Below the pieces are notes generated by a model. That model was not told the origin of the DNA and did no database searches. It saw nothing but the letters and a program-made list of their open reading frames with translations. The translations under genes and the position numbers were made by a program. From an uncultured Acidobacteriaceae bacterium (GTDB taxonomy: Bacteria > Acidobacteriota > Terriglobia > Terriglobales > Acidobacteriaceae), in contig CAWITS010000005.1 of assembly GCA_963839195.1 (NCBI GenBank), positions 502,477 through 566,476 on the forward strand: DNA of 64,000 nt, read 5' to 3'. Positions 39,152-61,640 of the stretch are shown in pieces. Position 1 is the first letter of the stretch. Each line of letters opens with the position of its first letter.

Positions 39152-39179
39152 TTGACACCGGCCAACTCACGTCTAGAAT
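39152..39179 (+). promoter_or_regulatory. sigma-70-like promoter candidate for the MerR-family gene
   Basis: TTGACA (39152-39157), 16-nt spacer, TAGAAT (39174-39179). About 50 nt upstream of ATG 39228. Confidence 0.4.
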
Positions 39180-39214: not shown

Positions 39215-39227
39215 AATTGCCCAGGAG

Positions 39228-39716: not shown

Positions 39717-39771
39717 GCAGCAAGTGCGTATCGAAGCATTGGGTCGAGCTAGCGGAACATAGGAGGAATGC

Positions 39772-40035: not shown

Positions 40036-40041
40036 AAAACG

Positions 40042-40069
40042 GGCCGCGCCCTGCGGCCTTTAGTTTTTT
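40042..40069 (+). terminator. intrinsic-terminator-like hairpin
   Basis: ggccgc-gccct-gcggcc followed by tttagtttttt. The T-tract overlaps the last codons of the convergent ribBA. Confidence 0.5.
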
Positions 40070-41238: not shown

Positions 41239-41244
41239 GATTGG

Positions 41245-41532
41245 CTACCCCTTCCTCGCCCGCTGCGGACCGTGAGAGCGCGACAGGTACTGCTGATCGA
41301 GGGCTTGGCGAATGAGAGTCTTAATCACTGCCTGACGGCTGACGTTCAGTTCCTGAGCGGCTCTGTCCAGCTCTTCTAACATGCCGGGCGCGAGATCCAC
41401 GTTCACCCTTTGGATTGGACTCATCATCTGGCCCTTGTTGGTGAAGAACCGGGAGACGTCCGCGCCCCGGTCGGCCAGCCGCGCAATGGTTTCAGCGGAT
41501 GCTGCCTTTCGCGTCTTATGAGTGCTCTTCAT
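41245..41532 (-). CDS. brnA: BrnA-family (CopG/RHH) antitoxin
   Basis: 95 aa. 'VNVDLAPGMLEELDRAAQELNVSRQAVIKTLIRQAL'. 17-nt overlap with the upstream brnT. The stop is 6 nt before the ribBA ATG. Confidence 0.75.
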   Translation of the reverse strand: MKSTHKTRKAASAETIARLADRGADVSRFFTNKGQMMSPIQRVNVDLAPGMLEELDRAAQELNVSRQAVIKTLIRQALDQQYLSRSHGPQRARKG

Positions 41533-48383: not shown

Positions 48384-50762
48384 TTGGAACGGTTAAACCA
48401 GGAACAATTAAACCAGGAACAGTCAAACCACTTGGAGCCTTCAAACCACAAGCCTCGCGTGCCGTCCGCTGCGTCCCCTACCGTGTACTGGCGGGTGGAG
48501 GGGAGCCTGCTCGACCTGACGGTGGTGCAGCCGGTGGCGTTTTTTACGTGGAACGCGCAGACGTTTGCGGAGCGGTTCCGGCGGCGGGGGCTGATCTTTC
48601 TGATGGCGGCGCTGCGTCCGTTTTTGTATTCGACGAACCGGAAGTTCGCGACGCGGGCGGTACACACGACTCTGCGGGGCGTGACGCGGGACCGGCTGGA
48701 TCTGCTGGGCGAAGAATACTTCCAATACCGATTGACGCCTGAGCTGAAGACGCATGGGGCGGAGCGGGTGCGGGAATTGGTGCGCGCGGGGGCGGATGTG
48801 GTGCTGGTGAGCCAAGCGCTGGAACACGTGATGAAGCCGCTGGCGCAGCATCTGGGAGTGAAGCGGGTGGTGGCGAACCGGTTGGAATTTCGCGATGGCG
48901 TCGCGACGGGGCGGCTGCTGGAGCCGGTGATCCGGCCTCGGGGAGCATTTGCGCGGATTCGAGAGCAGAGCCCGGATGGACGGCGGGCGCCGAAGACGTT
49001 GGCGCGGCAACTGGATATTACGGTGGATGAACTGCGAGCCGCGGCGATCGGGTCGGAGCGGGAGCCGGTGGTGGGGGAACATCCGATTGTGCATTTTGAG
49101 GGGCAGACGCAGACGACGGGATTTTCGGTGCGGCGGGCGCTGGCGGGCAAGCACGTGATGCTGATCGGAGTGACGGGTTTTATTGGCAAGGTGTGGCTGG
49201 CGAATACGCTGCTGGAGTTGCCGAAGATCGGGCGGATTTATCTGCTGATCCGGCGGCAGAAATCGAATCCGGCGCAGCAGCGGTTTGAAAAGATTGTGGA
49301 GGAGTCGCCGGTTTTCGATCCGCTGTTTGAGAAATATGGGGCGGGGCTGGCGGAATATCTGCGCGACAAAGTGGAGGTGGTGGAGGGCGACGTCACGCGA
49401 GCGGGGTTGGGGTTGGATGCGGAAGTGGCGGGGCGACTGCAGCGGAATCTCGATCTGATCGTGAATAGTTCGGGATTGACGGACTTCAATCCGGACTTGC
49501 GGGACGCGCTGGCGACGAATACGGATGCGGCAATGAACATCCTGGAGTTTGTGCGGGGAAGCGATCATGCCGGGCTGCTGCATTTATCTACTTGCTACGT
49601 GGCGGGCGAGCGCGACGGGCGGGTCGCGGAGCGGTTGATTCCGAATTACACGCCGCATCGTGTGCCGAACTTCGATGCGGAACAGGAGTGGCGTTCACTG
49701 CACGAGGTGATTGCGCAGGCAGAGGCGCAGGCCGAGGGCGCGGAAGTGACGGCCGGGTTGAAGATGCAATCCCTCGCGAAGGAACATGCGGCGAAAGGGC
49801 TGACGGGCGCGGCTTTGGAGAATCAGATCCGCAAGAACCGGATCCGGTGGCTGAAAACTTATTTGACTGATGCAGGGACGCGGCGGGCGAAGGAGTTGGG
49901 CTGGCCGAATACTTACACGCTGACCAAGAGCCTGGCGGAATCGCTGATGGTGAAGCATGGAGCGGGGCTGCCGATCGCGGTAGTGCGTCCGGCGATTGTG
50001 GAGACTTCGGTGGCGAAGCCGTTTCTGGGGTGGAATGAAGGGATCAACACTTCGGCGTCGCTGTCTTATTTGTTGGGAACATATTTCCGGCAGTTGCCCT
50101 CGAATGAGAGCAAGCGGCTGGACATTATTCCGGTGGACGCGGTCTGCGACGGGATGACGTTGATTGCGGCGGCGATTGTGGAGCGGCGGCATGATGCGCT
50201 GTATCAGCTGGCAACGTCGGTTACGAACCCTTGCGACATGGGGCGGTCGATTGAGTTGACGTCGCTGGCGCACCGCAAGCATTACCGGGCGCAGGAGGGG
50301 TTGGAGTCTTGGCTGCGGCTGCGGTTCGATGCGATTCCGGTCTCGAAGGAGCGTTACCAGCGGATGTCGGCTCCGGCGCAGAAGGCGATTGTGAAATCGA
50401 TTCAGCGGATCATGTCGCCGCTGCCGTTGAAGAAAACTCCGCTGGTGAAGGCGGAGAGGAATCTGGAGCGGCTGGAGAAATTGATTGAGTTATTTGAGCC
50501 TTTTATTTTGCTCAACGAGCATGACTTCGCGGCGGATAACGTGGAGAAATTGTCGCATGCGCTGGTAGAGGACGAGCGCGAGGAGTTTGGGTACAAGGCG
50601 CGGTTGCTGGATTGGTGGGATTACTGGATCAATGTACATATTCCGGCGCTGCGCAAGTGGACTTATCCGCTGATTGAGGGAAGGCCGCTGGAGGCGCGTC
50701 CGGCGCGGAGTTTGCAGAAGGGCGAAACAGTGAAGACGGGGACCAACGGCGGGACGTGGTGA
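48384..50762 (+). CDS. fusion protein: degenerate HAD-IB-like domain + fatty acyl-CoA/ACP reductase (NAD_binding_4 + FAR_C-like)
   Basis: 792 aa ORF. The true start is uncertain (in-frame TTG 48432, GTG 48459 or GTG 48483). 'VMLIGVTGFIGKVWL' is the GxTGFxGK motif and 'WPNTYTLTKSLAE' is the YxxxK motif, as in FAR enzymes. The N-terminal HAD-like region has 'WRVEGSL' where DxDxT is expected. Confidence 0.75.
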   Translation: MERLNQEQLNQEQSNHLEPSNHKPRVPSAASPTVYWRVEGSLLDLTVVQPVAFFTWNAQTFAERFRRRGLIFLMAALRPFLYSTNRKFATRAVHTTLRGVTRDRLDLLGEEYFQYRLTPELKTHGAERVRELVRAGADVVLVSQALEHVMKPLAQHLGVKRVVANRLEFRDGVATGRLLEPVIRPRGAFARIREQSPDGRRAPKTLARQLDITVDELRAAAIGSEREPVVGEHPIVHFEGQTQTTGFSVRRALAGKHVMLIGVTGFIGKVWLANTLLELPKIGRIYLLIRRQKSNPAQQRFEKIVEESPVFDPLFEKYGAGLAEYLRDKVEVVEGDVTRAGLGLDAEVAGRLQRNLDLIVNSSGLTDFNPDLRDALATNTDAAMNILEFVRGSDHAGLLHLSTCYVAGERDGRVAERLIPNYTPHRVPNFDAEQEWRSLHEVIAQAEAQAEGAEVTAGLKMQSLAKEHAAKGLTGAALENQIRKNRIRWLKTYLTDAGTRRAKELGWPNTYTLTKSLAESLMVKHGAGLPIAVVRPAIVETSVAKPFLGWNEGINTSASLSYLLGTYFRQLPSNESKRLDIIPVDAVCDGMTLIAAAIVERRHDALYQLATSVTNPCDMGRSIELTSLAHRKHYRAQEGLESWLRLRFDAIPVSKERYQRMSAPAQKAIVKSIQRIMSPLPLKKTPLVKAERNLERLEKLIELFEPFILLNEHDFAADNVEKLSHALVEDEREEFGYKARLLDWWDYWINVHIPALRKWTYPLIEGRPLEARPARSLQKGETVKTGTNGGTW
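48393..48450 (+). repeat. tandem TTAAACCAGGAACA(A/G) units plus CAAACCA tails at the 5' end of the HAD-FAR ORF
   Basis: ttaaaccaggaaca at 48393-48406 and 48408-48421, then gtcaaaccac and ttcaaaccaca. Translated in the ORF track as MERLNQEQLNQEQSNH, so probably 5' leader. Confidence 0.75.
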
Positions 50763-50774
50763 GGTTGGGAGTCT

Positions 50775-50873
50775 GGGCTAAAGCCCAGCGAACACGGATG
50801 TAGACATATAGGGATGTTTCGACTGCGCGTGCCGATTCGCTTCGCTCTTCGGCATGCTCCGCTCAAGATGACA
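50775..50873 (-). repeat. REP-B stub plus REP-A unit
   Basis: gggctaaagccc (50775-50786). The reverse complement of 50812-50873 reads tgtcatcttgagcggagc-...-gcgcagtcgaaacatcc. Confidence 0.7.
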
Positions 50874-50891
50874 AGAAACGGGAACGGGTGA

Positions 50892-52025
50892 ATGGCGATA
50901 TTTCTTACGGGATCGACGGGTTACATTGGGGCGCACGTGGCGGCGAATCTTCTGCGGGATCATGGCGCGTCGCTGAATGTGCTGGTGCGGGCGCGGGATG
51001 CTGAAGGGGCGCAAGGGCGGCTGTGGCAGGCTTTGCAATTGCATCTGGAGTTCCCGCAGTTTTATGAATATTTTCAGACGCGGGTGCGGGTGTTTCGCGG
51101 CGACCTGACGGCGCCGGGTTTCGGGCTGTCGCGTGATGAATACGACCGGCTGGTGCACACGACGGATTCGGTGATTCACTGCGCGGCGTCGCTGAACCGG
51201 AAATCGGAGAAGAGCTGCCTGAATGTGAATTTGCGCGGGACGCTGGAGGTGCTGACGCTGGCGCGGAGTGCGGAGCATTACCACGGGTTGAGACGTTTCA
51301 GCCAGGTGAGCACGGTGGCGGTGGCGGGGAAGCGGCACAATGAAGTGGTGACGGAGGATCGGTCGATTGACTGGGAGCGGTCGGACTACGACCCTTATGC
51401 ACGGACGAAAAAATTCTGCGAGCACATGATGCGGGTGCTGTTGCCGGAGACGCCGAAGACGGTTTTCCGTCCGAGCATTGTGCTGGGAGACAGCCGCTAT
51501 GCGGAGACTACGCAATTCGACATGGTGAAGGCGTTTGTTTTTCTGGCCGGGCTACCGGTGCTGCCGTTTCGCCCGACGGACAAGATCGACATTGTGAATG
51601 TGGATTTTGTGGCGGAGGCGATTGCGACGCTGCATCAGAAGGAACGGCCGGAGCACGATACGTATCATCTGTCGTCGGGAGCGGGGTCGCAGACGTTTCG
51701 CGAAATAACTTTGGCTCTAGCTGCGGCGCAGCAGAAACGCGCGCCGGTGTTTGTGCCGGTGGTGGAACGTCCGTTTGCCGGGTCGGTGAATTTTCTGGCG
51801 AACCGCTCGGGCGCGATCGGAAAACGTGCGTCGCTGATGAAAGTTTTTATGCCCTACCTGGTTTGGAATACGGTGTTCGATAACACGCGGGTGACTCGAG
51901 AGTTGGGGAAGAAGCCGGTGGCGTTCTCGGAGTATTGCTATCCTCTGCTGAAATTCAGCCGCGAGAATAATTTCGCGTATAGGTACCAGCCGTGGCCCGC
52001 GGCGGTGGGAGGCACGGCCGCATGA
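50892..52025 (+). CDS. SDR-family thioester-reductase-like protein (NAD_binding_4 type)
   Basis: 377 aa. '[13 protein letters not shown]', 'VIHCAASLN', 'YARTK' (YxxxK). Confidence 0.75.
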
Positions 52026-53431
52026 TGGACCTTATTTTAGAAGCCTGGGTGAGCGGGTCGATCGAGCGGGCGAAAGCGGGATGGATGCTGGGTGAGGGCA
52101 AGCGCTGGCAGCCGGGCGAGAAGCTGAAGCTTTTGTTTGCTGGGTACAACGGCACGCGGAATATGGGTTCGGATGTTCGGGTGGAAGAGATGCTGCGGCA
52201 GGTCCGGCATATTCTGGGTGCGGAGCGGGTAGAGTTCAGCGTGATGAGCCAGAACTTTGGCTTCTCGCGCGGATACTTCGAAGGCACAAAGCAGGTGCAC
52301 CTGCCGGATATATTTCCTCCGTTTCTGGCGAATGAAGTTCCGAAGCATGATGGGGTGGTGGCGTGTGAAGGGTCGATGTTCAAGAGCAAGTTCGCTAACG
52401 CGCTGACCACGATGATGATTGGATCGTTGGGGATTGCCGCGGCGCAGAATAAACTTTCCGTGGGATACGGCGCAGAAGCCGGGTATATGGATCCGCTAGT
52501 GGCGAAGATGTGCGGGCGGTATTGCAAGAATTCCTTTGTGATTACGCGGAATGAAGAGTCGCGGACCGTGCTGCGCGAGCTGGGCGTGCCTACTGAGCTG
52601 GGAACCGACACGGCGTGGACGTTTGAGCCGCGGCCGGCCGAGTACGGGCAGAGCGTGCTGCGGAAAGTGGGCTGGGATGGGCGGACACCGGTGCTGGTGG
52701 TGTGCCCGATTAATCCGTTCGAGTGGCCAGTTAAGGCTTCGGTGGCGAAATATGCGGCGCACGGTTTGACCGGAGCATACAAAGACAGCCATTACCGCAC
52801 GGTGTATTTTCACAACTCGGGGCCGGCGGCGGAGCAGGCTTACCAGAAATATTGGACGGCGATTGCGAATGCGGTGGATGCATTCCGGAAAAAGAAAAAT
52901 GTTTTTGTAATTCTCGCGGCGACGGAGCGGCTGGATGCGCGTCCGGCGAACCGGATTGCGGAAAAACTGGGCGGCGTGCCCGTGCTCACTTCGGATGAGT
53001 ACAACATGTACGAGCTGGTGAGCATTCTGCGGGCCTGCCACATGATGGCTTCGTCGAGGTATCACGGGATTGTGACGTCGATGCCGGGGCTGGTGCCGTC
53101 GGCGGGAATCACGATGGATGAGCGCATCCGGAACTTGATGCGGGAACGCGGGCATCAGGATTTGCTGATGACGGTGGATGATCCGGAACTGGAAGGGAAG
53201 CTGCTTGTGGCTCTGGAGAAACTGAGTTGTGAAGGTGAGGCGATTGCAACTGGAATTGCGCGGACCGTCGTGCGGAACTTGAAGGTGATGGCGCGCATGG
53301 GGGTTTATTTCGAGGAGGAAGTGCAGAGAAGGTATCCGGAGTTTGAGACGCGCCGCGGCGAGTGGAGTTGGGAAGATTATCTGCCGCCGATGAGTCGCGG
53401 GCTGCGGGAGCTGGCGGGGGCTTATAACTAG
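52022..53431 (+). CDS. polysaccharide-pyruvyl-transferase-family protein
   Basis: Start taken at ATG 52022 (ATGA overlap with the upstream stop). '[22 protein letters not shown]' resembles the G-Y-x-G-x-x-N-x-G-D start of PS_pyruv_trans (CsaB/WcaK-like) enzymes. Confidence 0.6.
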
Positions 53432-53513
53432 AGTTGCGTAAGACGGGTCGTGCCATCCGGGCGGAGGGGCGGCGGGCCGCTGTCGGCGAATGTGACAATG
53501 CGTATAAGGATGA

Positions 53514-53846
53514 TTGGCCTACATGAATAGCTTCGAAGAGCTAATTCGAGCAATGCTGTGGCTGAGCAAGAGGGATTGGGGCCGGTCTATTTTCCTGGGC
53601 TTGGGCTCGCTTGGAGCGCTGGCAGCAATTCCACAAAACGCAATAACTGAAGGTATCCTTGACGGGCCCGTGTTCCGCGCTGGGTTTTATGCGGGTACGG
53701 TTCTAATGCCTAAAGAAACGATCGGCGGTCATTCCTTGTTCGGCTTAGTGGCGGTTATTCTTATGCTCGTGGGGTTTTGGTTTATCGTTCTGTGTCTTGC
53801 GCGGCGACTGTTCGTTGATAGAACCGCACGTCAGTTGGGAAAGTAG
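53514..53846 (+). CDS. small membrane protein, AT-richer than its neighbours
   Basis: 110 aa. Two hydrophobic segments ('IFLGLGSLGALAAI', 'LFGLVAVILMLVGFWFIVLCLA'). TTG 53514 or ATG 53523 start. Confidence 0.45.
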   Translation: MAYMNSFEELIRAMLWLSKRDWGRSIFLGLGSLGALAAIPQNAITEGILDGPVFRAGFYAGTVLMPKETIGGHSLFGLVAVILMLVGFWFIVLCLARRLFVDRTARQLGK

Positions 53847-53926
53847 TTCGGCTGTTTATCGGGAGCTTAACCGCGCAGGCATAGTGGGAACTCCTTTCGG
53901 TGCCTGCGGGAGATGTTTTTGGGCAA

Positions 53927-53987
53927 GGGATCCTTCGACTCCGCAAAGCGCCCACTTTGTGGGCGCTTTGCTACGCTCAGGATGACA
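53927..53987 (-). repeat. REP-A unit (inverted)
   Basis: The reverse complement reads tgtcatcctgagcgtagc - aaagcgcccacaaagtgggcgcttt - gcggagtcgaaggatccc. Confidence 0.85.
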
Positions 53988-53997
53988 GAGTTAAGAG

Positions 53998-55671
53998 ATG
54001 AGTTTTCTGGAAGATATTTTCGAGGCGATCAAGCAGGCGGGGAATACAACTGCGCTTGCCGAGATTCGCGACGGCGAAATCGTGGGCGTGACTGGAAGCG
54101 AATTGCTGGAACTTGTCCGCAAGGCCAGAACGTTTATTGCTTCCAAGGGGCTGTCGAAGGGCGAGCGGTGCGGGTTGCTGGCGGTGAACAGTATTCGGTG
54201 GGTCGCGATGGATTTGGCGCTCATGGCCGAGGGGTTGATTGTCGTTCCTCTCTATTCGCGGCAAGCGCCGGCGGAACTGGTGGCGATGATGAAGGATTGC
54301 ACGCCGACGGCGGTGTGCTGTGGCGATGCGGCGTTGCGGGAAGGGATTGCTCAAAGTTGGGCGGAAGCTCCGCCGCAGTTTCTGTTTGACGAGATTTTTG
54401 CCGGAGTCGAGGGCGTGCAACTGGAGCGGCCGCAGGTCGGGAACGACAGTCCGGTGACCATCATTTATACATCCGGGACATCCGGTGAGGCCAAGGGCGT
54501 GGTGCTGACGGCGGCGAATGTGAGCTTCATGCTGGGGCGAACGGCCGAGCGATTGGAGCAACTGATGTCCGGTTCGTCGTCAGGTTCGAGATCAGGATCG
54601 GGAGGACAGGATCGCATCTTTCATTATTTGCCGTTTACGTTTGCGGCGTCGTGGATTGCGTTGCTGACATTTCTGAAGCGGCGGAGCCTGGTTACGATCA
54701 ACATGGATCTGACCAAAATTGCGAACGACATGCGCGCGGTGGCTCCGGATTATTTTTTGAATGTGCCGCAATTGCTGGAGCGGATGCGGCGAGCCGTGGA
54801 TGAGCAATTGTGGCAGACGGGCGGAGTGGCGCAGGCAATTTATTCGCGGGCAAAGGGCGCGTGGGCGCGGCGGCAGGATGGGCGGGCGAAAGCGGGAGAT
54901 GTGATTTGGCTGGCGCTGGCGAATGCGCTGGTATTTCCCGCGATTCGGAAGAAAATGATCGGGAAGAATCTGAAAGCGCTGATTTGCGGATCGGCGCCGC
55001 TGAGCGCGGAGACGCAGCTGTATTTCATGATGCTGGGAATTCGTGTGCTGCAGGTTTATGGGCTGACCGAGACTACCGCAATTTGCACGATGGATGATCC
55101 GAACCGGGTGGAGGTGGGGCGCGTGGGGCCGGCGATTCCCGGCATGGAGATGAAACTGGGAGAGCACGATGAGATCCTGGTGCGTGGGCCCAACGTTTTT
55201 TCAGGCTATTGGAAACGGCCGGAGCAGACGGCCGAGGCGCTGCGCGAAGGCTGGTTCCATACCGGCGATCAGGGCGAGGTGAACGCGGCTGGAAACTGGC
55301 GGATTGCCGGGCGGATCAAGAATCTGATTGTGCTGGGGTCGGGACACAAGATTTCGCCCGAGCCGATTGAGACTGCGATTTCGAAGAGTTTGCCGGAAGC
55401 GCAGCAGGTGGTGGTGGTGGGGAATGGGCGGGGATATTTGTCGGCGATCGTGACTGGCAACGTGACCGCGGAGAAGGCGCAATCCGCTTTGGATACGGTC
55501 AATCCTGGGTTGCCGCACTACAAGCAGGTGCGGGCATTTTACGTGCGCGGGGAAGCTTTCTCGATTGAGAGCGGGATGTTGACGGTGAACGGTAAGATCA
55601 AGCGGGACACGATCGCGGCGGTAATGAAAGAAGAGATCGAGGGGATGTATCGGGTGAGGCAGGCTGTGTAG
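53998..55671 (+). CDS. AMP-dependent synthetase/ligase (long-chain fatty-acid ligase-like)
   Basis: 557 aa. 'TIIYTSGTSGEAKGVVLT', 'YGLTET', 'TGDQGEV', 'GRIKNLI'. Confidence 0.85.
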   Translation: MSFLEDIFEAIKQAGNTTALAEIRDGEIVGVTGSELLELVRKARTFIASKGLSKGERCGLLAVNSIRWVAMDLALMAEGLIVVPLYSRQAPAELVAMMKDCTPTAVCCGDAALREGIAQSWAEAPPQFLFDEIFAGVEGVQLERPQVGNDSPVTIIYTSGTSGEAKGVVLTAANVSFMLGRTAERLEQLMSGSSSGSRSGSGGQDRIFHYLPFTFAASWIALLTFLKRRSLVTINMDLTKIANDMRAVAPDYFLNVPQLLERMRRAVDEQLWQTGGVAQAIYSRAKGAWARRQDGRAKAGDVIWLALANALVFPAIRKKMIGKNLKALICGSAPLSAETQLYFMMLGIRVLQVYGLTETTAICTMDDPNRVEVGRVGPAIPGMEMKLGEHDEILVRGPNVFSGYWKRPEQTAEALREGWFHTGDQGEVNAAGNWRIAGRIKNLIVLGSGHKISPEPIETAISKSLPEAQQVVVVGNGRGYLSAIVTGNVTAEKAQSALDTVNPGLPHYKQVRAFYVRGEAFSIESGMLTVNGKIKRDTIAAVMKEEIEGMYRVRQAV

Positions 55672-55683
55672 TGCAGGCCGGGA

Positions 55684-56544
55684 ATGCTGGGAAGCACTGA
55701 GGATACCTGGTTGAGTGAAGGAAAATCTGCGATTCAGTTTGCCAGCAAATGCGCGGGGAGCGCTTTGTCCTGGACTATTGCGGACGGCGTGATCGAGCTG
55801 GCCCTGCATCGAAAACCTTGCAACGAACTGGGATCGGCCTCTCTGGATGAGTTTGAGAAATTTGTGGCCGCTTTGGAGAGGATGCAGGCGGAAGCGCATG
55901 CGCTCATTATTTATAGCGAGATGAAGCCAGGGTTTTGCGCCGGAGCTGATTTGCGCGAGCTTTACCAGCGGTCGCAGGCGATGGAGAAAGCTGAGGCCGC
56001 CAAAGGCGTGCGGGATTTTTTGGAGCGGATTCATCGCGTGCTGAATCAGATTGATGCTGCGCCTTTGACGACGATTGCGGCCGTGCATGGAGTGACGTTT
56101 GGGGGAGGGTTCGAGCTGGCGCTGGCTTGCGACCTGATTGTCGCCGATAAAATGGCGCGGTTCTGTTTTCCTGAGCTGAGGCTGGGTTTGATTCCGGGGT
56201 TTGGCGGGATTCCGCGACTGAAGCGGGATTTGGGTAACGCTGTGGTGAGAGATCTGCTGCTGACGGGACGCAGTATCAATGCCACTAAGGCGCAGCAGAT
56301 TGGGCTGGTGAGCCAGGTGGTTGGCGAAGGCGAGGCGCTGCGGGCGGCGCGAGCTGCGGCAGCGCAGCTTGGGAAGTTTGATCGGGCGACGGCAGCTGCG
56401 GCGAAAAAGTTCATCAAGCCGATTCCGCGGGAAGAGTTGCGGCGGGAGATTGATATTTTTTGTGAACTGTTTGGGCGTCCGGCGGTGCAGGCCGGGTTGC
56501 GGAAGTTTGTGGAGAGCACGGATGCGCAGCCGTACTTGCCGTAG
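55684..56544 (+). CDS. enoyl-CoA hydratase/isomerase (crotonase) family protein
   Basis: 286 aa. 'FCAGADLRE' and 'AAVHGVTFGGGFELALACD'. Confidence 0.85.
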   Translation: MLGSTEDTWLSEGKSAIQFASKCAGSALSWTIADGVIELALHRKPCNELGSASLDEFEKFVAALERMQAEAHALIIYSEMKPGFCAGADLRELYQRSQAMEKAEAAKGVRDFLERIHRVLNQIDAAPLTTIAAVHGVTFGGGFELALACDLIVADKMARFCFPELRLGLIPGFGGIPRLKRDLGNAVVRDLLLTGRSINATKAQQIGLVSQVVGEGEALRAARAAAAQLGKFDRATAAAAKKFIKPIPREELRREIDIFCELFGRPAVQAGLRKFVESTDAQPYLP

Positions 56545-56578
56545 CGTTGCGGAGACAGAACGCGGGTGCCGAGGAGAT

Positions 56579-56658
56579 GGAGATCCTTCGCTTTGCTCAG
56601 GATGACAACCTGCTCAGGATGACGAGCTTGCTGATCACAATCCCTGCTCAGGATGACA
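56579..56658 (-). repeat. three tandem REP-A ends (CTGCTCAGGATGAC)
   Basis: ggagatccttcgctttgctcaggatgaca (56579-56607), cctgctcaggatgac (56609-56623), ccctgctcaggatgaca (56642-56658). Confidence 0.8.
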
Positions 56659-56668
56659 GAACGCATTT

Positions 56669-56911
56669 ATGAATACTGCTGAACAGACGCTTGATGAAAT
56701 TCTTAGTCTTGCGGCGGCGCACTTCAAGGTGCCGCGGGAGAAACTTCGTCCCGACGACGACTTTTTTAAAACGTTGGGGATCGACAGTTTGCAGACGCTG
56801 GATCTCCTCACCAAGCTGGAGAATCATTTTCGGGTGGAACTGCCGGATTATGAACTGCAGGGGGTTTCCGACTTTCGCACGCTTGCGGGGAAGATTCAGG
56901 CGCGGCTGTAG
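56669..56911 (+). CDS. acyl carrier protein (stand-alone)
   Basis: 80 aa. 'FFKTLGIDSLQTLDLLTKLE' carries the phosphopantetheine Ser in a DSL motif. Confidence 0.85.
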   Translation: MNTAEQTLDEILSLAAAHFKVPREKLRPDDDFFKTLGIDSLQTLDLLTKLENHFRVELPDYELQGVSDFRTLAGKIQARL

Positions 56912-56917
56912 CAAACA

Positions 56918-56997
56918 AATTGCTGATTGCTGATTTTTGATTGATGATTAAGCCCGCGGGTTGTTAATCAACAATCACCAATCTACAATCAGCAATT
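56918..56997. repeat. long hairpin with (ATTGNTG)n tandem-repeat arms filling the ACP-ligase spacer
   Basis: Left arm aattgctgattgctgatttttgattgatgattaa (56918-56951). Right arm ttaatcaacaatcaccaatctacaatcagcaatt (56964-56997). 29 of 34 positions are complementary. 12-nt loop gcccgcgggttg. Confidence 0.85.
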
Positions 56998-57003
56998 CTC
57001 CTT

Positions 57004-58710
57004 ATGCTCGACCTCCAAAAATATAGCTGTCTGGGCGCGGCGCTGCGCGATGCGGTGGAGCGCTTTGGGGGAGAGACTTGCCTGATCGAGGCTGACCGCG
57101 AGCGGGAGAAGACGCGGCTGACGTACTCCGATTTCAAAGAAATCAGCATGCCTCTGGCACGGGCGCTGGAGGATGCGGACTTCGATGCCGGGGATCGCGC
57201 GGCGATTCTTATGACGAATCAGTCGAAGTGGCTGATTTCGGCGTACGCGATTTTCTATTGCGGCGGGGTGCTGGTGCCGCTGGATTACAAACTTACGGCG
57301 GGCGAGCAACTGCAACTGTTGGAGCATTCGAAGGCGAAAGTGCTGGTGGTGGAGTATTACCTCTGGCGGGCGATCATGCAATCGCCGGAATTTCAGAACA
57401 TCAAGACGAAGCTGGTGCTGGTGACGGAAGCGCCGCTGGGAGCGGAGCTGGCGGGAGGGTTCCGCTGGGAAGATTTTCGGCGCAAGGGCGCGCCCGATTT
57501 CGTGATGCGGCAGCGCGAAGATGTGGCCTGCATCGTGTATTCATCGGGCACGGGTGGGCGGCCGAAGGGTTGTGTGCTGACGCATGAGAACTATCTGGAG
57601 CAGTGCCGGTCGCTGACGGCGTGGTATCCATTCTGGCCAGGGGTGCGGTATTTGAGCATTCTGCCGACCAACCACGCGATCGATTTCATGGTGGGATTCA
57701 TTGGGCCGTTCGTGTGCGGGGCGTGCGTGGTGCATTTGCGGACGCTGCGTCCGGAATTTGTGCGGGATGCGTTTGTGCGCTACCGGATTACTTATGTGGC
57801 GCTGGTGCCGATGATCGTGAAGAACCTGGAGCGCGGGCTGCGCGCGAAACTCGATGAGCTGCCGGCGTGGAAGCGGGTGATTCTGAATCGAATGATCGGG
57901 CTTAACAAGTTGCTGACGCGAGGCAAAGCGCGGGTGAAGGTGAGCCGCGCGCTGCTGCCGGGAGTGCATCGCGCGTTTGGCGGAGAGTTGCTGGCGCTGA
58001 TCACGGGCGGGGCATTCATGGAACCCTCGAGCATGCAGTTTTTTTATGATCTAGGAATTCCCGTGGTGAATGGATATGGATTGACGGAGGCGGGGACCGT
58101 CCTCACCGTGAACGATCTGAAGCCATTTCGCGCCGACACGGTGGGTAAACCACTGCCAGGCGCGGAACTGAGGATACTCAGTCCGAATGAAGAGGGGATT
58201 GGAGAAATTGCGGCGCGGAGCAAGACCGTGATGTCGCATTATCTGGATGATGCGGAGCTGACACTGGAAACGATTGTGGATGGCTGGCTTCTGACGGGAG
58301 ATTTGGGGCGCTTTGATAAGAATGGGCATCTGCAGCTTTTCGGGCGGAAGAAAAACATGATCGTCACCGAAGGCGGGAAGAATATTTATCCCGAGGATAT
58401 TGAGACGGTGTTCGATGGGCTGGCAGTGAAGGAGTACTGTGTGTTCGCGGCGAATTATGTTTGGCCGCAGAAGTTGGGTAAGGAGATGCTGGTGATGGCG
58501 CTGCGGCTGGAACAGAATCAGCGATTCGACAGCGCGCTGCTGGAAGAGATCGTGGCCCGCAATCGAAAGCTGCCTGACTTCAAACGTGTGGGCGGATATG
58601 TGATCTGCGAGAAAGATTTTCCGCGGACGGCGTCGATGAAAATCAAGCGTCAGGCGCTGGCGGAGGAACTGGGAAAGACGGTGAATCGGGCAGCGGTGGT
58701 GGGGCTGTGA
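57004..58710 (+). CDS. AMP-dependent synthetase/ligase (second copy)
   Basis: 568 aa. '[22 protein letters not shown]', 'YGLTEAG', 'TGDLGRFD', 'GRKKNMIV'. Confidence 0.85.
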
Positions 58711-59618
58711 ATGAGCGGCGGGAATCGTATCTGGCGATTGTGAACCCTGTGGCGGGGGGCGGGCGGAGCCGGAAGCTGCTGGGACCTGCGTTGGAGCGGC
58801 TGCGGGCGGGCGGAGTTGAAGTTGAAGTTGTCGAGACGCAGGGCGCAGGCGATGCTACCCGGATCGCGCGTGAGGCCTACGGACGCGGGCGGCGGCGGTT
58901 TATCGCGGTGGGTGGGGATGGGACTTCGTATGAAGTCGTGAACGGGCTTTTCCCGGAGGCGAGTGTGGGCGATCGTCCTACGCTCGGGTTTTTACCGCTG
59001 GGGACGGGGAATTCTTTTCTGCGCGATTTCAGCGATCGTGGAGTGGAACACGCGATCGAATCGCTGATTGCCGGGCGATCCCAGGCATGCGATGTGCTGC
59101 GGCTGCGGCACCGCGGCGGGGTGCTTCACTACATTAATCTGTTAAGCGTGGGGTTTCCAGCCGACGTAGCGACCTTGCGGGCGCGGCGTTTCAGCCGTCA
59201 GGGAGAATTGGGGTACGTCATCTCAATCTTTCTGGGGTTGGCACGATTGCGCAGGCGGCCGTTTCCGGTGCGAGTGGATGACGAAAGGGAGTTTGACCGG
59301 CGACGTTGTTTGTTTCTCACTTTCAACAACAGCAAGTTTACCGGCGGGACAATGATGATCGCGCCGAAGGCTGAAGTGAATAGCGGGCTCATTGAATATG
59401 TCCGATGGGGAGCGATTGGGAGGTTGGGGCTGATGGGAAATTTGCCCGGGCTTTATGATGGCACGCATATTGAACATCCTCGCGCGGAGAGAAAAGCGGT
59501 GAAGAGGATAGAATTCGACTTGAAAGAGCCGGTCGACGTGATGGTAGATGGAGAAGTGCTGACGCTGCTCTGCGAAGAATTGGATGTGCTGCCCGGGGCA
59601 TTGAACGTAGTAGCGTAA
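58707..59618 (+). CDS. diacylglycerol-kinase-family lipid kinase (YegS/BmrU-like)
   Basis: 303 aa. GTG start in a GTGA overlap with the ligase stop. '[10 protein letters not shown]', '[17 protein letters not shown]', '[12 protein letters not shown]'. Confidence 0.85.
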
Positions 59619-59657: not shown

Positions 59658-60080
59658 ATGACTGAGGAGCGCGGAACACGGGGACAGGATCGCAAGGGTG
59701 CGGCGGTGCCGAATCCGAAATCTCGCGACAAGCTGGTTTGGGCCGGGATCGGAATCGTGCTCGTCATCGCATATGTCGGGTTCTGGTATCACAATAATCA
59801 CCGCTACGATGATTTCGCGAAGTGTATGGCGTCGAAGCAGGTGAAGATGTATGGGGCTTACTGGTGTCCGCACTGTGCCGAGCAGAAGGAAATTCTCGGA
59901 AAGTCGTATCGATTTGTATACGTTGAGTGCGGAGTGCAGGGTTCACACTCGGAGTCGGATGAGTGTAAGGCTCTGGGCATAAAAGGGTTCCCGTCATGGC
60001 GATTTCCGGATGGCTCCATGATCCCGCTCGTATTTTCTGCGGCGGAGTTGAGCGATAAGACTGGGTGCAGTTTGCCGTGA
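59658..60080 (+). CDS. membrane-anchored thioredoxin-like protein (VKOR-partner type)
   Basis: 140 aa. One N-terminal TM. 'MYGAYWCPHCAEQKEILG ... YVEC ... C..LGIKGFPSW' matches the Trx-like domain normally fused to bacterial VKOR. Confidence 0.75.
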   Translation: MTEERGTRGQDRKGAAVPNPKSRDKLVWAGIGIVLVIAYVGFWYHNNHRYDDFAKCMASKQVKMYGAYWCPHCAEQKEILGKSYRFVYVECGVQGSHSESDECKALGIKGFPSWRFPDGSMIPLVFSAAELSDKTGCSLP

Positions 60081-60550
60081 GTGTGACGGGAGATCGGCAC
60101 GAACCGAACGCAACTTCCACGGAGCGCAACCAAGGGTTGTTCGTAGCGATTGTCGTCCTGGCGGTCGCTGGAATCGTGGTATCAGCAGCATCTCTGCAGC
60201 GGCATTATGCGAAGTCGGCGACCGCGTTCTGCGACATCGGCGAGCGATTCAATTGCGACATCGTGAACCGGAGCGAGTATTCGACGGTGATGGGAATTCC
60301 GGTGGCGGGGATTGGGATTGCCGGGTACGGAGTGTTGCTGGCGCTGGCGACGATTTACAGGTCGCGGTCGGAAACGCCGACGCGGCTATTCGCTGCGGCA
60401 GTCGCGGGGTTAGCATTTGCACTATATCTCACCTACGTTGAGGGCTATGTGCTGGAGACGTGGTGCATTCTGTGTTTGAGTTCGCTTGTCTCGATCGGCG
60501 TCATCACTTTTCTCGCGGGCCTCGTGAAGGCGCGAAGCGGGAAGTCGTGA
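60065..60550 (+). CDS. vitamin K epoxide reductase (VKOR) family protein
   Basis: 161 aa. Loop cysteines 'FCDIGERFNCDIV' and active site 'TWCILCL'. The start may be GTG 60077 (GTGA overlap with the Trx-gene stop). Confidence 0.8.
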   Translation: MQFAVSVTGDRHEPNATSTERNQGLFVAIVVLAVAGIVVSAASLQRHYAKSATAFCDIGERFNCDIVNRSEYSTVMGIPVAGIGIAGYGVLLALATIYRSRSETPTRLFAAAVAGLAFALYLTYVEGYVLETWCILCLSSLVSIGVITFLAGLVKARSGKS

Positions 60551-60577
60551 TTGTCTTCGAGGATGCATGGGAGGCTC

Positions 60578-61639
60578 ATGTCGTCCTCCACTAAACCGCG
60601 TCTGAACGCTTACGCTCGATGGCTCACAGTTGGGATCGCGGCTGCGCTAGCCATCAAACTGCCGCTTGACTGGATCGCCTACCGCGTCAGATATGAGGGC
60701 TCGTTCCTTAACTTCCACATACTTCTGGCGGTGATTTACATTCCTGTGGCGTTCGGACTCATCTGGCCGGCGCTGATCGGAGTTGAGGCGTGGGTGATGC
60801 GGTCCGCAGGCCGGGACCGGAAGTGGCCGTCGAAGGCCGCTGTCATCGTGTTCAGTGTGTCGGCGGTTGGCGCGACGCCCTGCATCCTGTTTGAGCATCG
60901 CCGTATAGTAATTCTTCGCGAGGCTGCTCGGGCCGAAGCCGAACGCATGCAGCAATTCCGCATGCAGCAAGGCACATTGGTGCTGGCGGCGGCGGCGGCT
61001 ATTCAGGCCAATGGCATCACGGCGTTCAGCGACCCTTTGACAGGACCGCAAATTGATGCTGTTAACCGCTACCTCGATGCGCATCCCGGGAACCTGCGAG
61101 AGTTGCAAAGCGCCAGCGAGCATTATCGTTATCCCTCGAGCGTGATGATCATGAAGCATCTCTCAGAAAAGAGATATTGCCCGCCGGAAGTGCTGGATAC
61201 TATTTTTGAAAATGCAGTTGATCTGCAAAAAGGTCCGTCGTTTCCGAGTAAGGGCGATCTCTCGATGGTGTTTTACAACCTTGCGTGGAATCCCAATGTG
61301 CCGGTCTCAGTGCTGATCAAAATGCTGGATAACGAGGATGCCGGGGCGCGACGAGCGGCCGCGGCGAATCCGCGAACGCCGAAGGCGGCAAGAATTGAGT
61401 ATCTTCGAAGGGCAGCTGTTTCCCGGAAGATTGTGGAGCGTCAGGAGGCGGCGGAGAACCCGGACTGTCCACAGGATGTACTGAAGCAACTGGCATTGGA
61501 CTCTCTCACATCCAGGTTTGCCGCGTCCAATCCAAATCTGCCGCTCGATCTGCTGCAGGCTCTAGCTAGCTCCAGCGACCTCGCGACGCGGAACCGGGCG
61601 CTGGCAAATCTGGCTAAACGTGAAAAAACACAGCCCTGA
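60578..61639 (+). CDS. membrane protein with C-terminal leucine-rich-repeat-variant (LRV/HEAT-like) repeats
   Basis: Start at ATG 60578 (GGGAGG upstream). The N-terminus has TM segments. The C-terminus repeats 'NPNVPVSVL', 'ANPRTPKAA', 'ENPDCPQDVL', 'SNPNLPLDLL'. Confidence 0.6.
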   Translation: MSSSTKPRLNAYARWLTVGIAAALAIKLPLDWIAYRVRYEGSFLNFHILLAVIYIPVAFGLIWPALIGVEAWVMRSAGRDRKWPSKAAVIVFSVSAVGATPCILFEHRRIVILREAARAEAERMQQFRMQQGTLVLAAAAAIQANGITAFSDPLTGPQIDAVNRYLDAHPGNLRELQSASEHYRYPSSVMIMKHLSEKRYCPPEVLDTIFENAVDLQKGPSFPSKGDLSMVFYNLAWNPNVPVSVLIKMLDNEDAGARRAAAANPRTPKAARIEYLRRAAVSRKIVERQEAAENPDCPQDVLKQLALDSLTSRFAASNPNLPLDLLQALASSSDLATRNRALANLAKREKTQP

Positions 61640-61640
61640 G

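What the first reader, a model, noticed from the sequence alone, without database searches (positions are those of the whole stretch)
48384..59618. 11-kb co-directional lipid-tailoring cluster that fits no named pathway (stand-alone ACP, two acyl-AMP ligases, two thioester-reductase SDRs, crotonase, pyruvyl-transferase-like enzyme, DAGK-type lipid kinase)
All genes are on the + strand with short or overlapping junctions (ATGA at 52022-52025, GTGA at 58707-58710).

Motifs read directly from the translations:
- FAR type: 'GVTGFIGK' plus 'NTYTLTKSLAE'
- second reductase: 'GSTGYIGAH' plus 'YARTK'
- PS_pyruv_trans-like: '[11 protein letters not shown]'
- AMP-binding: 'YTSGTSGEAKG' and '[11 protein letters not shown]'
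- crotonase: 'FCAGADLRE'
- ACP: 'GIDSLQTLD'
- lipid kinase: 'GGDGT'

The parts list implies these steps: activate a fatty acid, load it on a dedicated ACP, hydrate or isomerise it, reduce the thioester to an aldehyde or alcohol, then phosphorylate and/or pyruvylate the product.

The absences are equally informative:
- No ketosynthase or OleA, so not an olefin pathway.
- No WS/DGAT, so not wax ester synthesis.
- No PlsC-type acyltransferase, so unlike the myxobacterial ElbD ether-lipid enzyme.
- No serine palmitoyltransferase or bCerS, so not the Caulobacter-type ceramide cluster. The combination of ACP, dedicated ligase, epimerase-type reductase and DAGK-type kinase is nonetheless reminiscent of that cluster.

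Working hypothesis (pure inference): a reduced 3-hydroxyacyl product (a fatty alcohol or 1,3-diol) receives a phosphate or pyruvate-ketal head group, giving a non-glycerol polar lipid.
Basis: partly seen in the sequence, partly recalled or inferred. Interest (0 to 1): 0.78.

Follow-up and report, generated by a model that had tools for sequence, protein, structure and literature searches.

The report
Conserved reductive lipid-backbone operon in Acidobacteria
This is a real eight-gene operon, conserved in soil Acidobacteria and in Myxococcota, that most likely turns fatty acids into an unusual, possibly ether-linked, phospholipid precursor around an uncharacterised enzyme that probably uses phosphoenolpyruvate; it is a testable candidate for how these bacteria make ether lipids.

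Summary
All eight domain calls, all quoted motifs and both overlapping junctions are confirmed.

This domain lacks the catalytic aspartate.

The gene order is far from chance. HAD-like::FAR, thioester-reductase SDR, pyruvyl-transferase-like (PvT), ligase 1, crotonase, ACP, ligase 2 and lipid kinase stay in this order in about 70 Terriglobia species. The same order appears in a second Terriglobales lineage and in high-GC clusters of Myxococcota type, where proteins are 33-60% identical.

In those other lineages a PlsC-type acyltransferase follows the kinase, with overlapping genes. One locus adds a CDP-alcohol phosphatidyltransferase.

The closest known system is the Myxococcus elb ether-lipid operon (HAD, FAR, ligase, ACP, acyltransferase, NAD-epimerase). 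Here it is split into separate genes and extended with PvT, crotonase and kinase.

Two natural fusions (FAR C-domain::PvT and PvT::ligase 1) and the absence of any acyl-CoA dehydrogenase suggest a route, by inference only:
- fatty alcohol plus PEP gives an enolpyruvyl ether;
- this is converted to a thioester, hydrated and reduced to alkylglycerol;
- the alkylglycerol is phosphorylated and then acylated.

None of the biochemistry has been tested.

The parts
48384..50762 (+). Fusion of a HAD-like module (about residues 35-195) with a fatty acyl reductase (NAD_binding_4 plus the Sterile C-domain). The exact start codon is uncertain: this is the longest ORF at 792 aa, and relatives are called at 787 aa.
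   Evidence: Pfam and NCBIfam hits. GVTGFIGK and the YxxxK motif (NTYTLTK) are present. HAD motif I reads R-V-E-G instead of D-x-D-G and is conserved that way in L001, L090 and L091, so the module is probably not a phosphatase. HAD and FAR are separate genes in the Myxococcota-type loci.
50892..52025 (+). Stand-alone SDR of the thioester-reductase (terminal R-domain) type.
   Evidence: NAD_binding_4 at 149 bits and TIGR01746 at 132 bits, which is below that family's cut-off. The closest solved structures are the myxalamid MxaA reductase 4u7w, PKS/NRPS R domains and carboxylic acid reductase R domains. It is 53% identical to the L090 orthologue.
52022..53431 (+). Pyruvyl-transferase-like (PvT) enzyme with a GT-B fold. 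Of the eight cluster proteins only the 80-aa ACP is slightly better conserved among close relatives.
   Evidence: PF04230 at 34.9 bits (threshold 25.3) and TIGR03609 CsaB at 59 bits, E 4e-16, below the equivalog cut-off. The AlphaFold2 model has pLDDT 96. It is GT-B-like, with TM about 0.5 to UDP-glycosyltransferases and 2-epimerases. No solved structure is detectable by sequence. Mean identity to 80 Terriglobia orthologues is 87%.
53998..55671 (+). Ligase 1: adenylate-forming ligase of the long-chain, FadD11-like type with AMP-binding_C_3.
   Evidence: It is fused to the C-terminus of PvT in P0178/L083. It is absent from some Myxococcota-type clusters.
55684..56544 (+). Crotonase-fold enoyl-thioester hydratase.
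   Evidence: ECH_1 at 147 bits. The closest structures are EchA8 and other hydratases. Both catalytic glutamates are readable in the sequence (GGGFELALACD and FPELRLG).
56669..56911 (+). Stand-alone acyl carrier protein.
   Evidence: PP-binding at 41.9 bits. The DSL serine motif GIDSLQTLD is present. Mean identity to orthologues is 88%.
57004..58710 (+). Ligase 2: adenylate-forming ligase next to the ACP. It is present in every full-length version of the cluster.
   Evidence: AMP-binding at 223 bits. It is 50-51% identical to the Myxococcota-type orthologues. The closest structure is 8weu, a fatty-acyl-CoA synthase.
58707..59618 (+). Soluble lipid kinase of the YegS/BmrU/DgkB family.
   Evidence: DAGK_cat plus YegS_C. 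TIGR00147 scores 134.6 bits, above its cut-off. The closest structures are DgkB, YegS and BmrU. In other lineages its stop codon overlaps the start of a PlsC-type acyltransferase gene.
59658..62492 (+). Co-directional neighbours, probably not core: thioredoxin-like protein (59658-60080), VKOR (60065-60550), LRV-repeat protein (60551-61639, absent in relatives) and a PF00756 esterase (61620-62492).
   Evidence: Trx, VKOR and the esterase follow the kinase in 68-70 of 74 evaluable close relatives. Elsewhere they are replaced by the acyltransferase.

Best explanation
The region is a single operon that builds a non-canonical phospholipid backbone from fatty acids by reduction. It is a split and extended relative of the myxobacterial elb (ether lipid biosynthesis) operon.

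Shown:
- the identity of the eight enzyme domains;
- their fixed order across two phyla;
- in most other lineages, a PlsC-type acyltransferase directly after the kinase.

Inferred route:
1. Ligase 2 loads a fatty acid on the dedicated ACP, or FAS acyl-ACP is used directly.
2. The FAR reduces the acyl thioester to a fatty alcohol.
3. The PvT-like enzyme transfers the enolpyruvyl group of PEP to that alcohol, giving a 2-alkoxyacrylate. This step makes the ether bond.
4. Ligase 1, or ligase 2 with the ACP where ligase 1 is missing, converts the new carboxylate to a thioester. That thioester is already alpha,beta-unsaturated.
5. The crotonase hydrates it to a 2-O-alkylglyceroyl thioester.
6. The R-domain-type SDR reduces it to an alkylglycerol.
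7. The DgkB/YegS-type kinase phosphorylates the alkylglycerol.
8. A PlsC-type acyltransferase acylates the remaining hydroxyl. It is encoded in the cluster in other lineages and would be a housekeeping enzyme here. The product is an ether analogue of phosphatidic acid that enters head-group synthesis.

The HAD-like module lacks its nucleophile and is taken to be non-catalytic.
For: - Domain calls are confirmed.
- Synteny of all eight genes: 69-77 of 74-77 evaluable loci in the window's lineage, 12 of 14 in a second Terriglobales tier, and Myxococcota-type loci L090, L091, L097, L098, L102 and L107 at 33-60% identity.
- Kinase and PF01553/TIGR00530 acyltransferase genes overlap in L090, L091 and L172. 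A CDP-alcohol phosphatidyltransferase lies next to the cluster in L172. This points to a product with one phosphorylated and one acylated hydroxyl.
- Natural fusions give the order FAR, then PvT, then ligase 1: Sterile::PvT (P0136/L173) and PvT::ligase 1 (P0178/L083).
- PvT chemistry creates a carboxylate, which is what a ligase needs as substrate.
- No dehydrogenase exists in any version to make a 2-enoyl substrate for the crotonase, and genes are contiguous with gaps under 300 bp. An enolpyruvyl thioester needs no such enzyme.
- The crotonase keeps both catalytic glutamates.
- The SDR is closest to carrier-protein-dependent terminal reductases.
- PvT invariant residues R176, R346-x-H348 and R368 have the spacing of the CsaB PEP-binding residues R148, R306-x-H308 and K328 (PMC10435577).
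- The elb operon has HAD, FAR-ligase-ACP-acyltransferase and NAD-epimerase parts, and its ether-forming step is unknown (PMC9131029).
- Acidobacteria are the exception among alkyl-ether producers in lacking Ger (PMC13159169).
Against: - No biochemistry exists for any of these proteins.
- The PvT assignment is weak: 35 bits in Pfam, below the NCBIfam equivalog cut-offs, no alignment to a solved pyruvyltransferase, and only generic GT-B matches in the fold search.
- Known family members make ketals on sugars, not enol ethers on lipids.
- The route predicts an ether on the middle carbon of glycerol. Reported myxobacterial ether lipids are sn-1 (PMC9131029). As far as I recall, acidobacterial monoethers are also 1-O-alkyl; I did not check this.
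- Ligase 1 is missing in several Myxococcota-type clusters and the SDR is missing in L091, so the pairing of ligases and reductases with substrates is not fixed.
- PvT-like genes also occur away from any lipid genes (L084-L087).
- No cultured organism with a known lipid profile was shown to carry the cluster.
Confidence: 0.35

Rival explanations
1. The operon is functionally equivalent to elb. The reductases, ligases and ACP supply a fatty alcohol or aldehyde that is joined to a glycerol-phosphate or DHAP-derived backbone by chemistry not yet understood. The PvT-like protein and the crotonase are tailoring or accessory enzymes, for example modifying a head group or acting as a GT-B-type transferase with another donor, and do not form the ether bond.
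For: The parts overlap with the elb operon: HAD, FAR, ligase, ACP, acyltransferase and NAD-epimerase. DAG kinases, acyltransferases and CDP-alcohol phosphatidyltransferases have been noted next to elb-like clusters in sponge symbionts (bioRxiv 10.64898/2026.06.23.733905). The PvT fold matches generic GT-B transferases.
Against: PvT and the ACP are the two best-conserved cluster proteins in the window's lineage. PvT was the search anchor, so its presence in every locus carries no weight; however, the natural fusions to the FAR C-domain and to ligase 1 suggest a central role rather than an accessory one. None of the 170 loci pairs PvT with a fused ElbD-type protein. This reading leaves the crotonase without a substrate.
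Confidence: 0.22
2. One reading: a 3-hydroxyacyl thioester is reduced to a long-chain 1,3-diol, which then receives a phosphate and/or a pyruvate ketal. The result is a non-glycerol polar lipid.
For: Known PF04230 enzymes form 4,6-ketals, and that hydroxyl pair is a 1,3-diol (PMC10435577). The FAR, crotonase and kinase are all present. A diol phosphorylated at one hydroxyl and acylated at the other would also fit the kinase and acyltransferase pair.
Against: No dehydrogenase is present to make the enoyl substrate. A ketal would consume both hydroxyls that the kinase and acyltransferase need. The PvT::ligase 1 fusion implies that the pyruvate-derived carboxylate is processed further. The model gives no role to the second reductase.
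Confidence: 0.13
3. The cluster makes a diffusible or specialised metabolite rather than a bulk membrane lipid. Candidates are a fatty aldehyde, fatty alcohol or signal lipid, as in NRPS-like reductive clusters.
For: The combination of ligase, ACP and terminal-reductase type SDR is a split carboxylic acid reductase or NRPS-like module. A TetR regulator follows the Myxococcota-type clusters. Elb products act as signals in Myxococcus (PMC9426513).
Against: PvT relatives were found in at least 565 species-level genomes. In the 77 evaluable loci of the window's lineage the cluster is single-copy and almost always complete. Proteins are highly conserved. The cluster is linked to PlsC-type and CDP-alcohol transferase genes.
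Confidence: 0.1
4. The genes are unrelated units that happen to sit together: a polysaccharide pyruvyltransferase, beta-oxidation genes and a wax-alcohol reductase.
For: A GT87 glycosyltransferase lies nearby on the other strand. Some PvT-like genes occur without any lipid genes.
Against: The order is conserved across two phyla at 33-60% identity, start and stop codons overlap, and there are domain fusions.
Confidence: 0.02

Closest known systems
Myxococcus xanthus elbA-E ether lipid biosynthesis operon (ElbD = FAR-ligase-ACP-acyltransferase; ElbB HAD-like; ElbA and ElbE NAD-epimerase family; ElbC unknown)
   Same: The same enzyme classes are present: HAD-like, NAD_binding_4 reductase, adenylate-forming ligase, ACP and an epimerase-type SDR. 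Orthologous clusters also have an AGPAT-type acyltransferase. The cluster occurs in Acidobacteriota and Myxococcota, two of the bacterial groups with aerobic members known to make alkyl ethers. The ether-forming step of elb is itself unknown (PMC9131029).
   Different: All domains are separate genes here, and only HAD is fused to FAR. The window itself has no acyltransferase. There are three extra conserved genes (PvT-like, crotonase, DgkB/YegS kinase) and a second ligase. Sequence orthology to the Elb proteins could not be tested.
Ketal-pyruvyltransferases CsaB, Pvg1p and WcaK (PF04230)
   Same: The protein passes the Pfam family threshold and has a GT-B-like two-domain fold. An R...R-x-H...R/K pattern sits at the spacing of the PEP-binding residues.
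   Different: It scores far below the equivalog cut-offs and is not alignable to 5ax7 by sequence. Its genomic context is lipid genes, not polysaccharide genes. The proposed acceptor is a lipid alcohol and the proposed product an enol ether.
Enolpyruvyl transferases MurA and EPSP synthase
   Same: They provide the proposed chemistry: an enolpyruvyl ether is formed from PEP and an alcohol with release of phosphate (established biochemistry; MurA is discussed in PMC10435577).
   Different: The fold and family are unrelated. This is an analogy of mechanism only.
Eukaryotic and myxobacterial FAR/GNPAT/AGPS ether-lipid pathway
   Same: A FAR-type reductase supplies the fatty alcohol. An acyltransferase and an SDR reductase also take part. 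Alkylglycerol kinase is a known salvage activity.
   Different: No AGPS (FAD-linked alkyl-DHAP synthase) homologue is present in any version of the cluster. A PEP-dependent step is proposed instead of acyl/alkyl exchange on DHAP.
Caulobacter-type bacterial ceramide cluster (Spt, bCerS, CerR, ACP, ACP ligase, ceramide kinase)
   Same: It shares a dedicated ACP with an adjacent ligase, an epimerase-type reductase and a DAGK-fold lipid kinase.
   Different: There is no serine palmitoyltransferase and no bCerS in the window cluster or in any orthologous cluster.
Carboxylic acid reductase (A-T-R) and NRPS/PKS terminal reductases such as MxaA
   Same: Ligase, ACP and R-type SDR together form a split version. 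The closest structures to the SDR are MxaA and the carboxylic acid reductase R domains.
   Different: The three parts are separate polypeptides, embedded in a larger lipid operon with a second, FAR-type reductase.

Membership tests
elb ether-lipid operon (M. xanthus) | Multidomain ElbD: FAR, acyl-CoA synthetase, ACP and AGPAT-like acyltransferase in one protein | tested here: not met
   FAR, the ligases and the ACP are separate genes. No acyltransferase homologue is in the window. Relatives carry a separate PF01553 gene. None of about 170 loci has a fused ElbD-type protein.
elb ether-lipid operon (M. xanthus) | HAD-like partner (ElbB) and NAD-dependent epimerase/dehydratase partner (ElbE) | tested here: met
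   A HAD PF12710 domain is fused to the FAR. The SDR carries Epimerase and NAD_binding_4 hits. HAD is a separate gene in L090 and L091. This is met at the domain level only.
elb ether-lipid operon (M. xanthus) | Sequence orthology to ElbB-E, and identity of ElbC | not testable with these tools
   No tool could fetch MXAN_1527-1531.
elb ether-lipid operon (M. xanthus) | Loss of the genes lowers alkyl and vinyl ether lipids | not testable with these tools
   This needs genetics and lipidomics.
Polysaccharide ketal-pyruvyltransferases (PF04230; CsaB, WcaK, Pvg1p) | Profile match above the curated threshold | tested here: inconclusive
   Pfam: 34.9 bits against a threshold of 25.3, so met. NCBIfam equivalogs: CsaB 59.2 against 213.1 and WcaK 18.5 against 399, so not met. 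Pfam precomputed hits are absent for many Myxococcota-type orthologues.
Polysaccharide ketal-pyruvyltransferases (PF04230; CsaB, WcaK, Pvg1p) | PEP-binding residues: CsaB R148, R306, H308, K328 | tested here: inconclusive
   R176, R346 and H348 are invariant or nearly so, and R368 is nearly invariant. Their spacing matches. No residue-level alignment to CsaB or Pvg1p could be made.
Polysaccharide ketal-pyruvyltransferases (PF04230; CsaB, WcaK, Pvg1p) | Saccharide acceptor and polysaccharide-cluster context | tested here: not met
   The neighbours are lipid enzymes in all cluster-type loci.
Fatty acyl-CoA/ACP reductase (FAR) | NAD_binding_4 Rossmann domain with GxxGxxG and YxxxK, plus the Sterile C-terminal domain | tested here: met
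   PF07993 at 170 bits and PF03015 at 37.8 bits, above its 35.4 threshold. GVTGFIGK and YTLTK are present.
YegS/Rv2252/BmrU lipid kinases | DAGK_cat plus YegS_C, with TIGR00147 above its cut-off | tested here: met
   134.6 bits against 118.65. The GGDGT motif is present. The closest structures are DgkB, YegS and BmrU. The substrate is unknown.
HAD phosphatases (subfamily IB) | Motif I DxDGT nucleophile, motif III Lys, motif IV acidic pair | tested here: not met
   Motif I is R-V/L-E-G in four divergent members. Motifs III and IV are degenerate in L091 when aligned to SerB. The window's hit covers only positions 6-161 of the 189-position profile.
Caulobacter-type ceramide synthesis cluster | Serine palmitoyltransferase and bCerS | tested here: not met
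   No such domains are in the cluster or its orthologues.
Hydratase-type crotonases | ECH_1 fold with two catalytic glutamates and an oxyanion hole | tested here: met
   PF00378 at 147 bits. FCAGADL, GGGFELALACD and FPELRLG are read from the translation.

The most novel reading that the evidence does not exclude
The PvT-like enzyme forms the lipid ether bond by transferring the enolpyruvyl group of PEP to a fatty alcohol. The ligase, crotonase, R-type reductase and kinase then turn that three-carbon unit into the glycerol phosphate of an ether phospholipid. This would be a new, oxygen-independent route to ether lipids in which glycerol is built on the lipid instead of being supplied as G3P or DHAP. 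It would be the missing ether-lipid pathway of soil and peat Acidobacteria and of part of the Myxococcota. It would naturally make sn-2 ethers, which are the step still lacking an enzyme in current models of brGDGT synthesis.
Probability: 0.22. Interest if true: 0.92.

Novelty: new variant of a known kind. Interest (0 to 1): 0.7.

Why it matters
Branched tetraether lipids (brGDGTs) from soil and peat are widely used palaeothermometers. Their makers and the way they form ether bonds remain unresolved. The known bacterial ether enzyme Ger is missing from most ether-producing Acidobacteria (PMC13159169; PMC13274423).

PvT relatives were found in at least 565 bacterial species genomes, and the full cluster was seen in about 70 of the 80 Terriglobia genomes examined. 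Near-identical copies are very abundant in soil and peat metagenomes.

If the operon makes ether lipids, three things follow:
- It gives a genetic marker for producers.
- It gives a set of soluble enzymes that can be assayed directly.
- It suggests how the elb-type pathway works, because the ether-forming step of that pathway is also unknown.

Even if the product is not an ether lipid, a conserved ten-enzyme route to a phosphatidic-acid analogue built around a lipid-context relative of the PEP-dependent pyruvyl transferases would be new lipid biochemistry.

Tried and rejected
- A profile of 44 diverse PvT sequences was too divergent for the search for related loci. The narrower profile spent the only genome-contig scan on 80 near relatives at 81% identity or more. 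As a result no cultured genome, and no Myxococcus xanthus locus, could be fetched.
- Whether ElbC is a PvT-like protein therefore stays open. The original elb paper is not held. Searches for elbC and for the MXAN locus tags gave only operon descriptions.
- Sequence searches of the PDB with PvT profiles found nothing meaningful. The fold search gave only generic GT-B hits, so active-site equivalence to CsaB or Pvg1p rests on motif spacing alone.
- The Rfam scan of 44-64 kb found nothing, including in the long spacer. Promoter and terminator scans were at chance level.
- PDB neighbours of the two ligases are generic and say nothing about substrate.
- Literature searches pairing pyruvyl transferase or enolpyruvyl with ether lipid, FAR or lipid kinase found no relevant paper.

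Readings considered and dropped:
- Beta-oxidation or fatty acid salvage: there is no dehydrogenase and no thiolase.
- DSF/RpfF-type signal synthesis: no supporting family hit.
- PEP plus aldehyde aldol chemistry: that belongs to TIM-barrel enzymes, not to this fold.
- An active HAD phosphatase step: the nucleophile is absent.

Full report
**Observation**

The stated interval holds eight co-directional genes on the + strand.
- 48384-50762: NAD_binding_4 plus Sterile, a fatty acyl reductase (FAR).
- 50892-52025: a second NAD_binding_4/Epimerase SDR. Its closest solved relatives are carrier-protein-dependent terminal reductases: MxaA 4u7w, PKS/NRPS R domains and carboxylic acid reductase R domains.
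- 52022-53431: a weak but above-threshold PS_pyruv_trans match (34.9 bits against 25.3; CsaB TIGR03609 at 59 bits, below its cut-off).
- 53998-55671: AMP-binding plus AMP-binding_C_3.
- 55684-56544: ECH_1.
- 56669-56911: PP-binding.
- 57004-58710: AMP-binding.
- 58707-59618: DAGK_cat plus YegS_C, above the TIGR00147 cut-off.

All quoted motifs are in the translations.

Three things were missed or misstated:
- The first protein has an N-terminal HAD-like domain.
- The gap between the pyruvyl-transferase-like (PvT) gene and ligase 1 is 566 bp and is specific to this window.
- Nothing shows that the ligases are of the acyl-AMP (FAAL) type.

**Boundaries and host**

Upstream lies a PHO4 phosphate transporter on the other strand. 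Downstream, still on the + strand, are a thioredoxin-like protein, VKOR, an LRV-repeat protein and a PF00756 esterase, followed by a GT87 gene on the minus strand.

The closest PvT proteins are 92-97% identical. They come from soil and peat metagenomes and from MAGs named Candidatus Sulfotelmatobacter or Acidoferrum. The window is therefore from a member of the Terriglobia.

**Conservation**

I used the PvT gene as anchor and fetched 80 species-representative genomes, 80 metagenome loci and twelve contexts by exact protein look-up. All cluster proteins were then mapped with tblastn.

1. *The window's own lineage (PvT at least 81% identical; 88 loci).*
   - HAD, FAR and SDR precede PvT in 76-77 of 77 evaluable loci.
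   - Ligase 1, crotonase and ACP follow in 73-74 of 74 loci.
   - Ligase 2 and the kinase follow in 69 of 74.
   - The thioredoxin-like gene, VKOR and the esterase follow in 68-70 of 74.
2. *A second tier (60-81% identical; named Terriglobales or Acidobacteriia).*
   - The same eight genes are kept.
   - In L120, L121, L138, L154, L158 and L172 the cluster ends with a PlsC-type acyltransferase instead of the thioredoxin-VKOR-esterase set.
   - In L172 the kinase and acyltransferase genes overlap, and a convergent CDP-alcohol phosphatidyltransferase follows.
3. *High-GC loci.*
   - The PvT proteins of this group carry NCBI names from Myxococcota, including Sandaracinaceae.
   - The order is HAD, FAR, SDR, PvT, optional ligase 1, crotonase, ACP, ligase 2, kinase, acyltransferase, TetR.
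   - It is seen in L090, L091, L097, L098, L102 and L107.
   - Identities to the window proteins are 33-60%.
   - The acyltransferase matches PF01553 and the TIGR00530 AGP-acyltransferase domain.

No acyltransferase homologue exists in the window or within 10 kb of the cluster in its close relatives.

Within the close lineage, PvT (mean 87%) and the ACP (88%) are the best-conserved proteins.

The PvT-like family is of moderate size: 241 clusters at 50% identity with E below 1e-30. It also occurs outside lipid contexts, as in L084-L087, L092, L100, L108 and L113.

**Clues to the order of steps**

- *Two natural fusions.*
  - P0178 (locus L083) is PvT fused to ligase 1. It is followed by an R-type SDR.
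  - P0136 (locus L173) is the FAR C-terminal Sterile domain fused to PvT. It is preceded by the FAR catalytic domain and followed by crotonase, ACP and a ligase.
  - Together they suggest the order FAR, then PvT, then carboxylate activation.
- *No dehydrogenase.* The crotonase has both catalytic glutamates and so needs an alpha,beta-unsaturated thioester. No version of the cluster has room for an acyl-CoA or acyl-ACP dehydrogenase, because the genes are contiguous.
- *Kinase and acyltransferase pair.* Their overlapping genes imply an intermediate with at least two free hydroxyls: one is phosphorylated and one is acylated.
- *HAD-like module.* It has R-V/L-E-G where the DxDG nucleophile motif should be, in four divergent members. 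Its later motifs are degenerate. It should not be counted as a phosphatase step.

**The PvT-like protein**

The AlphaFold2 model is confident (pLDDT 96) and has a GT-B-like two-domain fold. The best structural matches are only generic UDP-glycosyltransferases and 2-epimerases at TM about 0.5. No solved structure is found by sequence.

Across 44 family members at 26-51% identity the invariant residues include R53, R176, D196, H348 and D366. R346 and R368 are nearly invariant. The spacing R176 ... R346-x-H348 ... R368 matches the experimentally supported PEP-binding residues of CsaB: R148, R306, H308 and K328 (PMC10435577). This is an inference from spacing, not from an alignment.

**Most likely mechanism (inferred)**

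1. The FAR makes a fatty alcohol from acyl-ACP. The acyl-ACP is loaded by ligase 2 or taken from fatty acid synthesis.
2. PvT transfers the enolpyruvyl group of PEP to the alcohol. This forms the ether bond and creates a new carboxylate.
3. A ligase converts that carboxylate to a CoA or ACP thioester. The thioester is already an enoyl thioester.
4. The crotonase hydrates it to a 2-O-alkylglyceroyl thioester.
5. The R-type SDR reduces it to an alkylglycerol.
6. The kinase phosphorylates the alkylglycerol.
7. A PlsC-type enzyme acylates it.

This route gives every conserved catalytic gene a job and fits both fusions. It explains why no dehydrogenase is needed. It ends in a phosphatidic-acid analogue, which agrees with the acyltransferase and CDP-alcohol transferase neighbours.

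Weak points:
- There is no biochemistry.
- The pyruvyl-transferase assignment is weak.
- Ligase 1 and the SDR are each dispensable in some lineages.
- The predicted ether sits on the middle carbon, whereas the reported myxobacterial ether lipids are sn-1.

I give the specific route about 0.2-0.35. I give higher odds to the more general statement that the operon makes a fatty-alcohol-derived phospholipid precursor.

**Comparison with known systems**

The closest known system is the M. xanthus elbA-E operon. It contains ElbB (HAD-like), ElbD (FAR, ligase, ACP and AGPAT-like acyltransferase), ElbA and ElbE (NAD-dependent epimerase family) and ElbC (unknown function). Its ether-forming chemistry is unresolved (PMC9131029; PMC13012113).

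The family described here covers all those domain classes. It differs in three ways:
- The domains are separate genes.
- It adds PvT, crotonase, kinase and a second ligase.
- It is never seen with a fused ElbD-type protein in the loci I examined.

The elb-like clusters reported from sponge symbionts are built around a fused ElbD. Those papers do not mention a pyruvyl transferase.

The cluster is not the Caulobacter-type ceramide cluster, because Spt and bCerS are absent. It is not the AGPS route, because no AGPS is present.

Searches for papers combining pyruvyl transferase or enolpyruvyl with ether lipids, FAR or lipid kinase found nothing relevant.

**Verdict**

However, the cluster is best seen as a new variant of the elb-type reductive ether-lipid systems, and the 1,3-diol pyruvate-ketal model fits the wider evidence poorly.

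The finding matters because ether-lipid synthesis in Acidobacteria is an open problem tied to brGDGT proxies (PMC13159169; PMC13274423). This operon provides a concrete, testable candidate.

Noticed in passing
window 53432-53997: A 566-bp spacer lies between the PvT gene and ligase 1; relatives have roughly 10-600 bp there, mostly under 200 bp. It holds a 110-aa ORF (53514-53846, +) with two hydrophobic stretches. The ORF has no family hit and no homologue in the 86 related loci searched.
   Followed up: partly
window 53943-53971 and 38929-38995: A perfect palindrome, GCAAAGCGCCCAC-TTT-GTGGGCGCTTTGC, sits at the 3' end of the spacer. A 75%-identical 67-nt copy lies on the opposite strand about 15 kb upstream. 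It looks like a REP-type extragenic repeat.
   Followed up: partly
window 48384-49100 (N-terminus of the first gene): The HAD-like module has invariant R-x-E-G in place of the DxDG nucleophile motif, in Terriglobia and in Myxococcota-type orthologues. It is likely a pseudo-phosphatase of unknown role. The extreme N-terminus carries a tandem LNQEQ/LNQEQ repeat, and the true start codon is uncertain.
   Followed up: partly
window 59658-62492: A thioredoxin-like protein, VKOR and a PF00756 esterase follow the kinase in 68-70 of 74 close relatives. In other lineages a PlsC-type acyltransferase takes this position. The LRV-repeat gene at 60551-61639 is absent from relatives.
   Followed up: partly
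L087 10001-11446 (assembly GCA_000255655.1): A PvT-like gene 51% identical to the window's stands alone between an alkyl sulfatase, which is an enzyme that releases fatty alcohols, and PEP carboxylase. Sulfatases also flank the PvT-like gene in L084.
   Followed up: no
L173 5754-11519: The FAR is split: a catalytic NAD_binding_4 gene is followed by a Sterile::PvT fusion, then crotonase, ACP and a ligase. The cluster is cut off by a DDE transposase.
   Followed up: no
L172 17903-18514: A CDP-alcohol phosphatidyltransferase is convergent with the end of the ten-gene cluster in a Terriglobales MAG.
   Followed up: no
window 23600-41300: A complex I (nuo) operon lies on the minus strand at about 23.6-38 kb, and ribBA lies at 40060-41238. 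Gene orientation switches and cumulative GC skew reaches its minimum near 40 kb.
   Followed up: no
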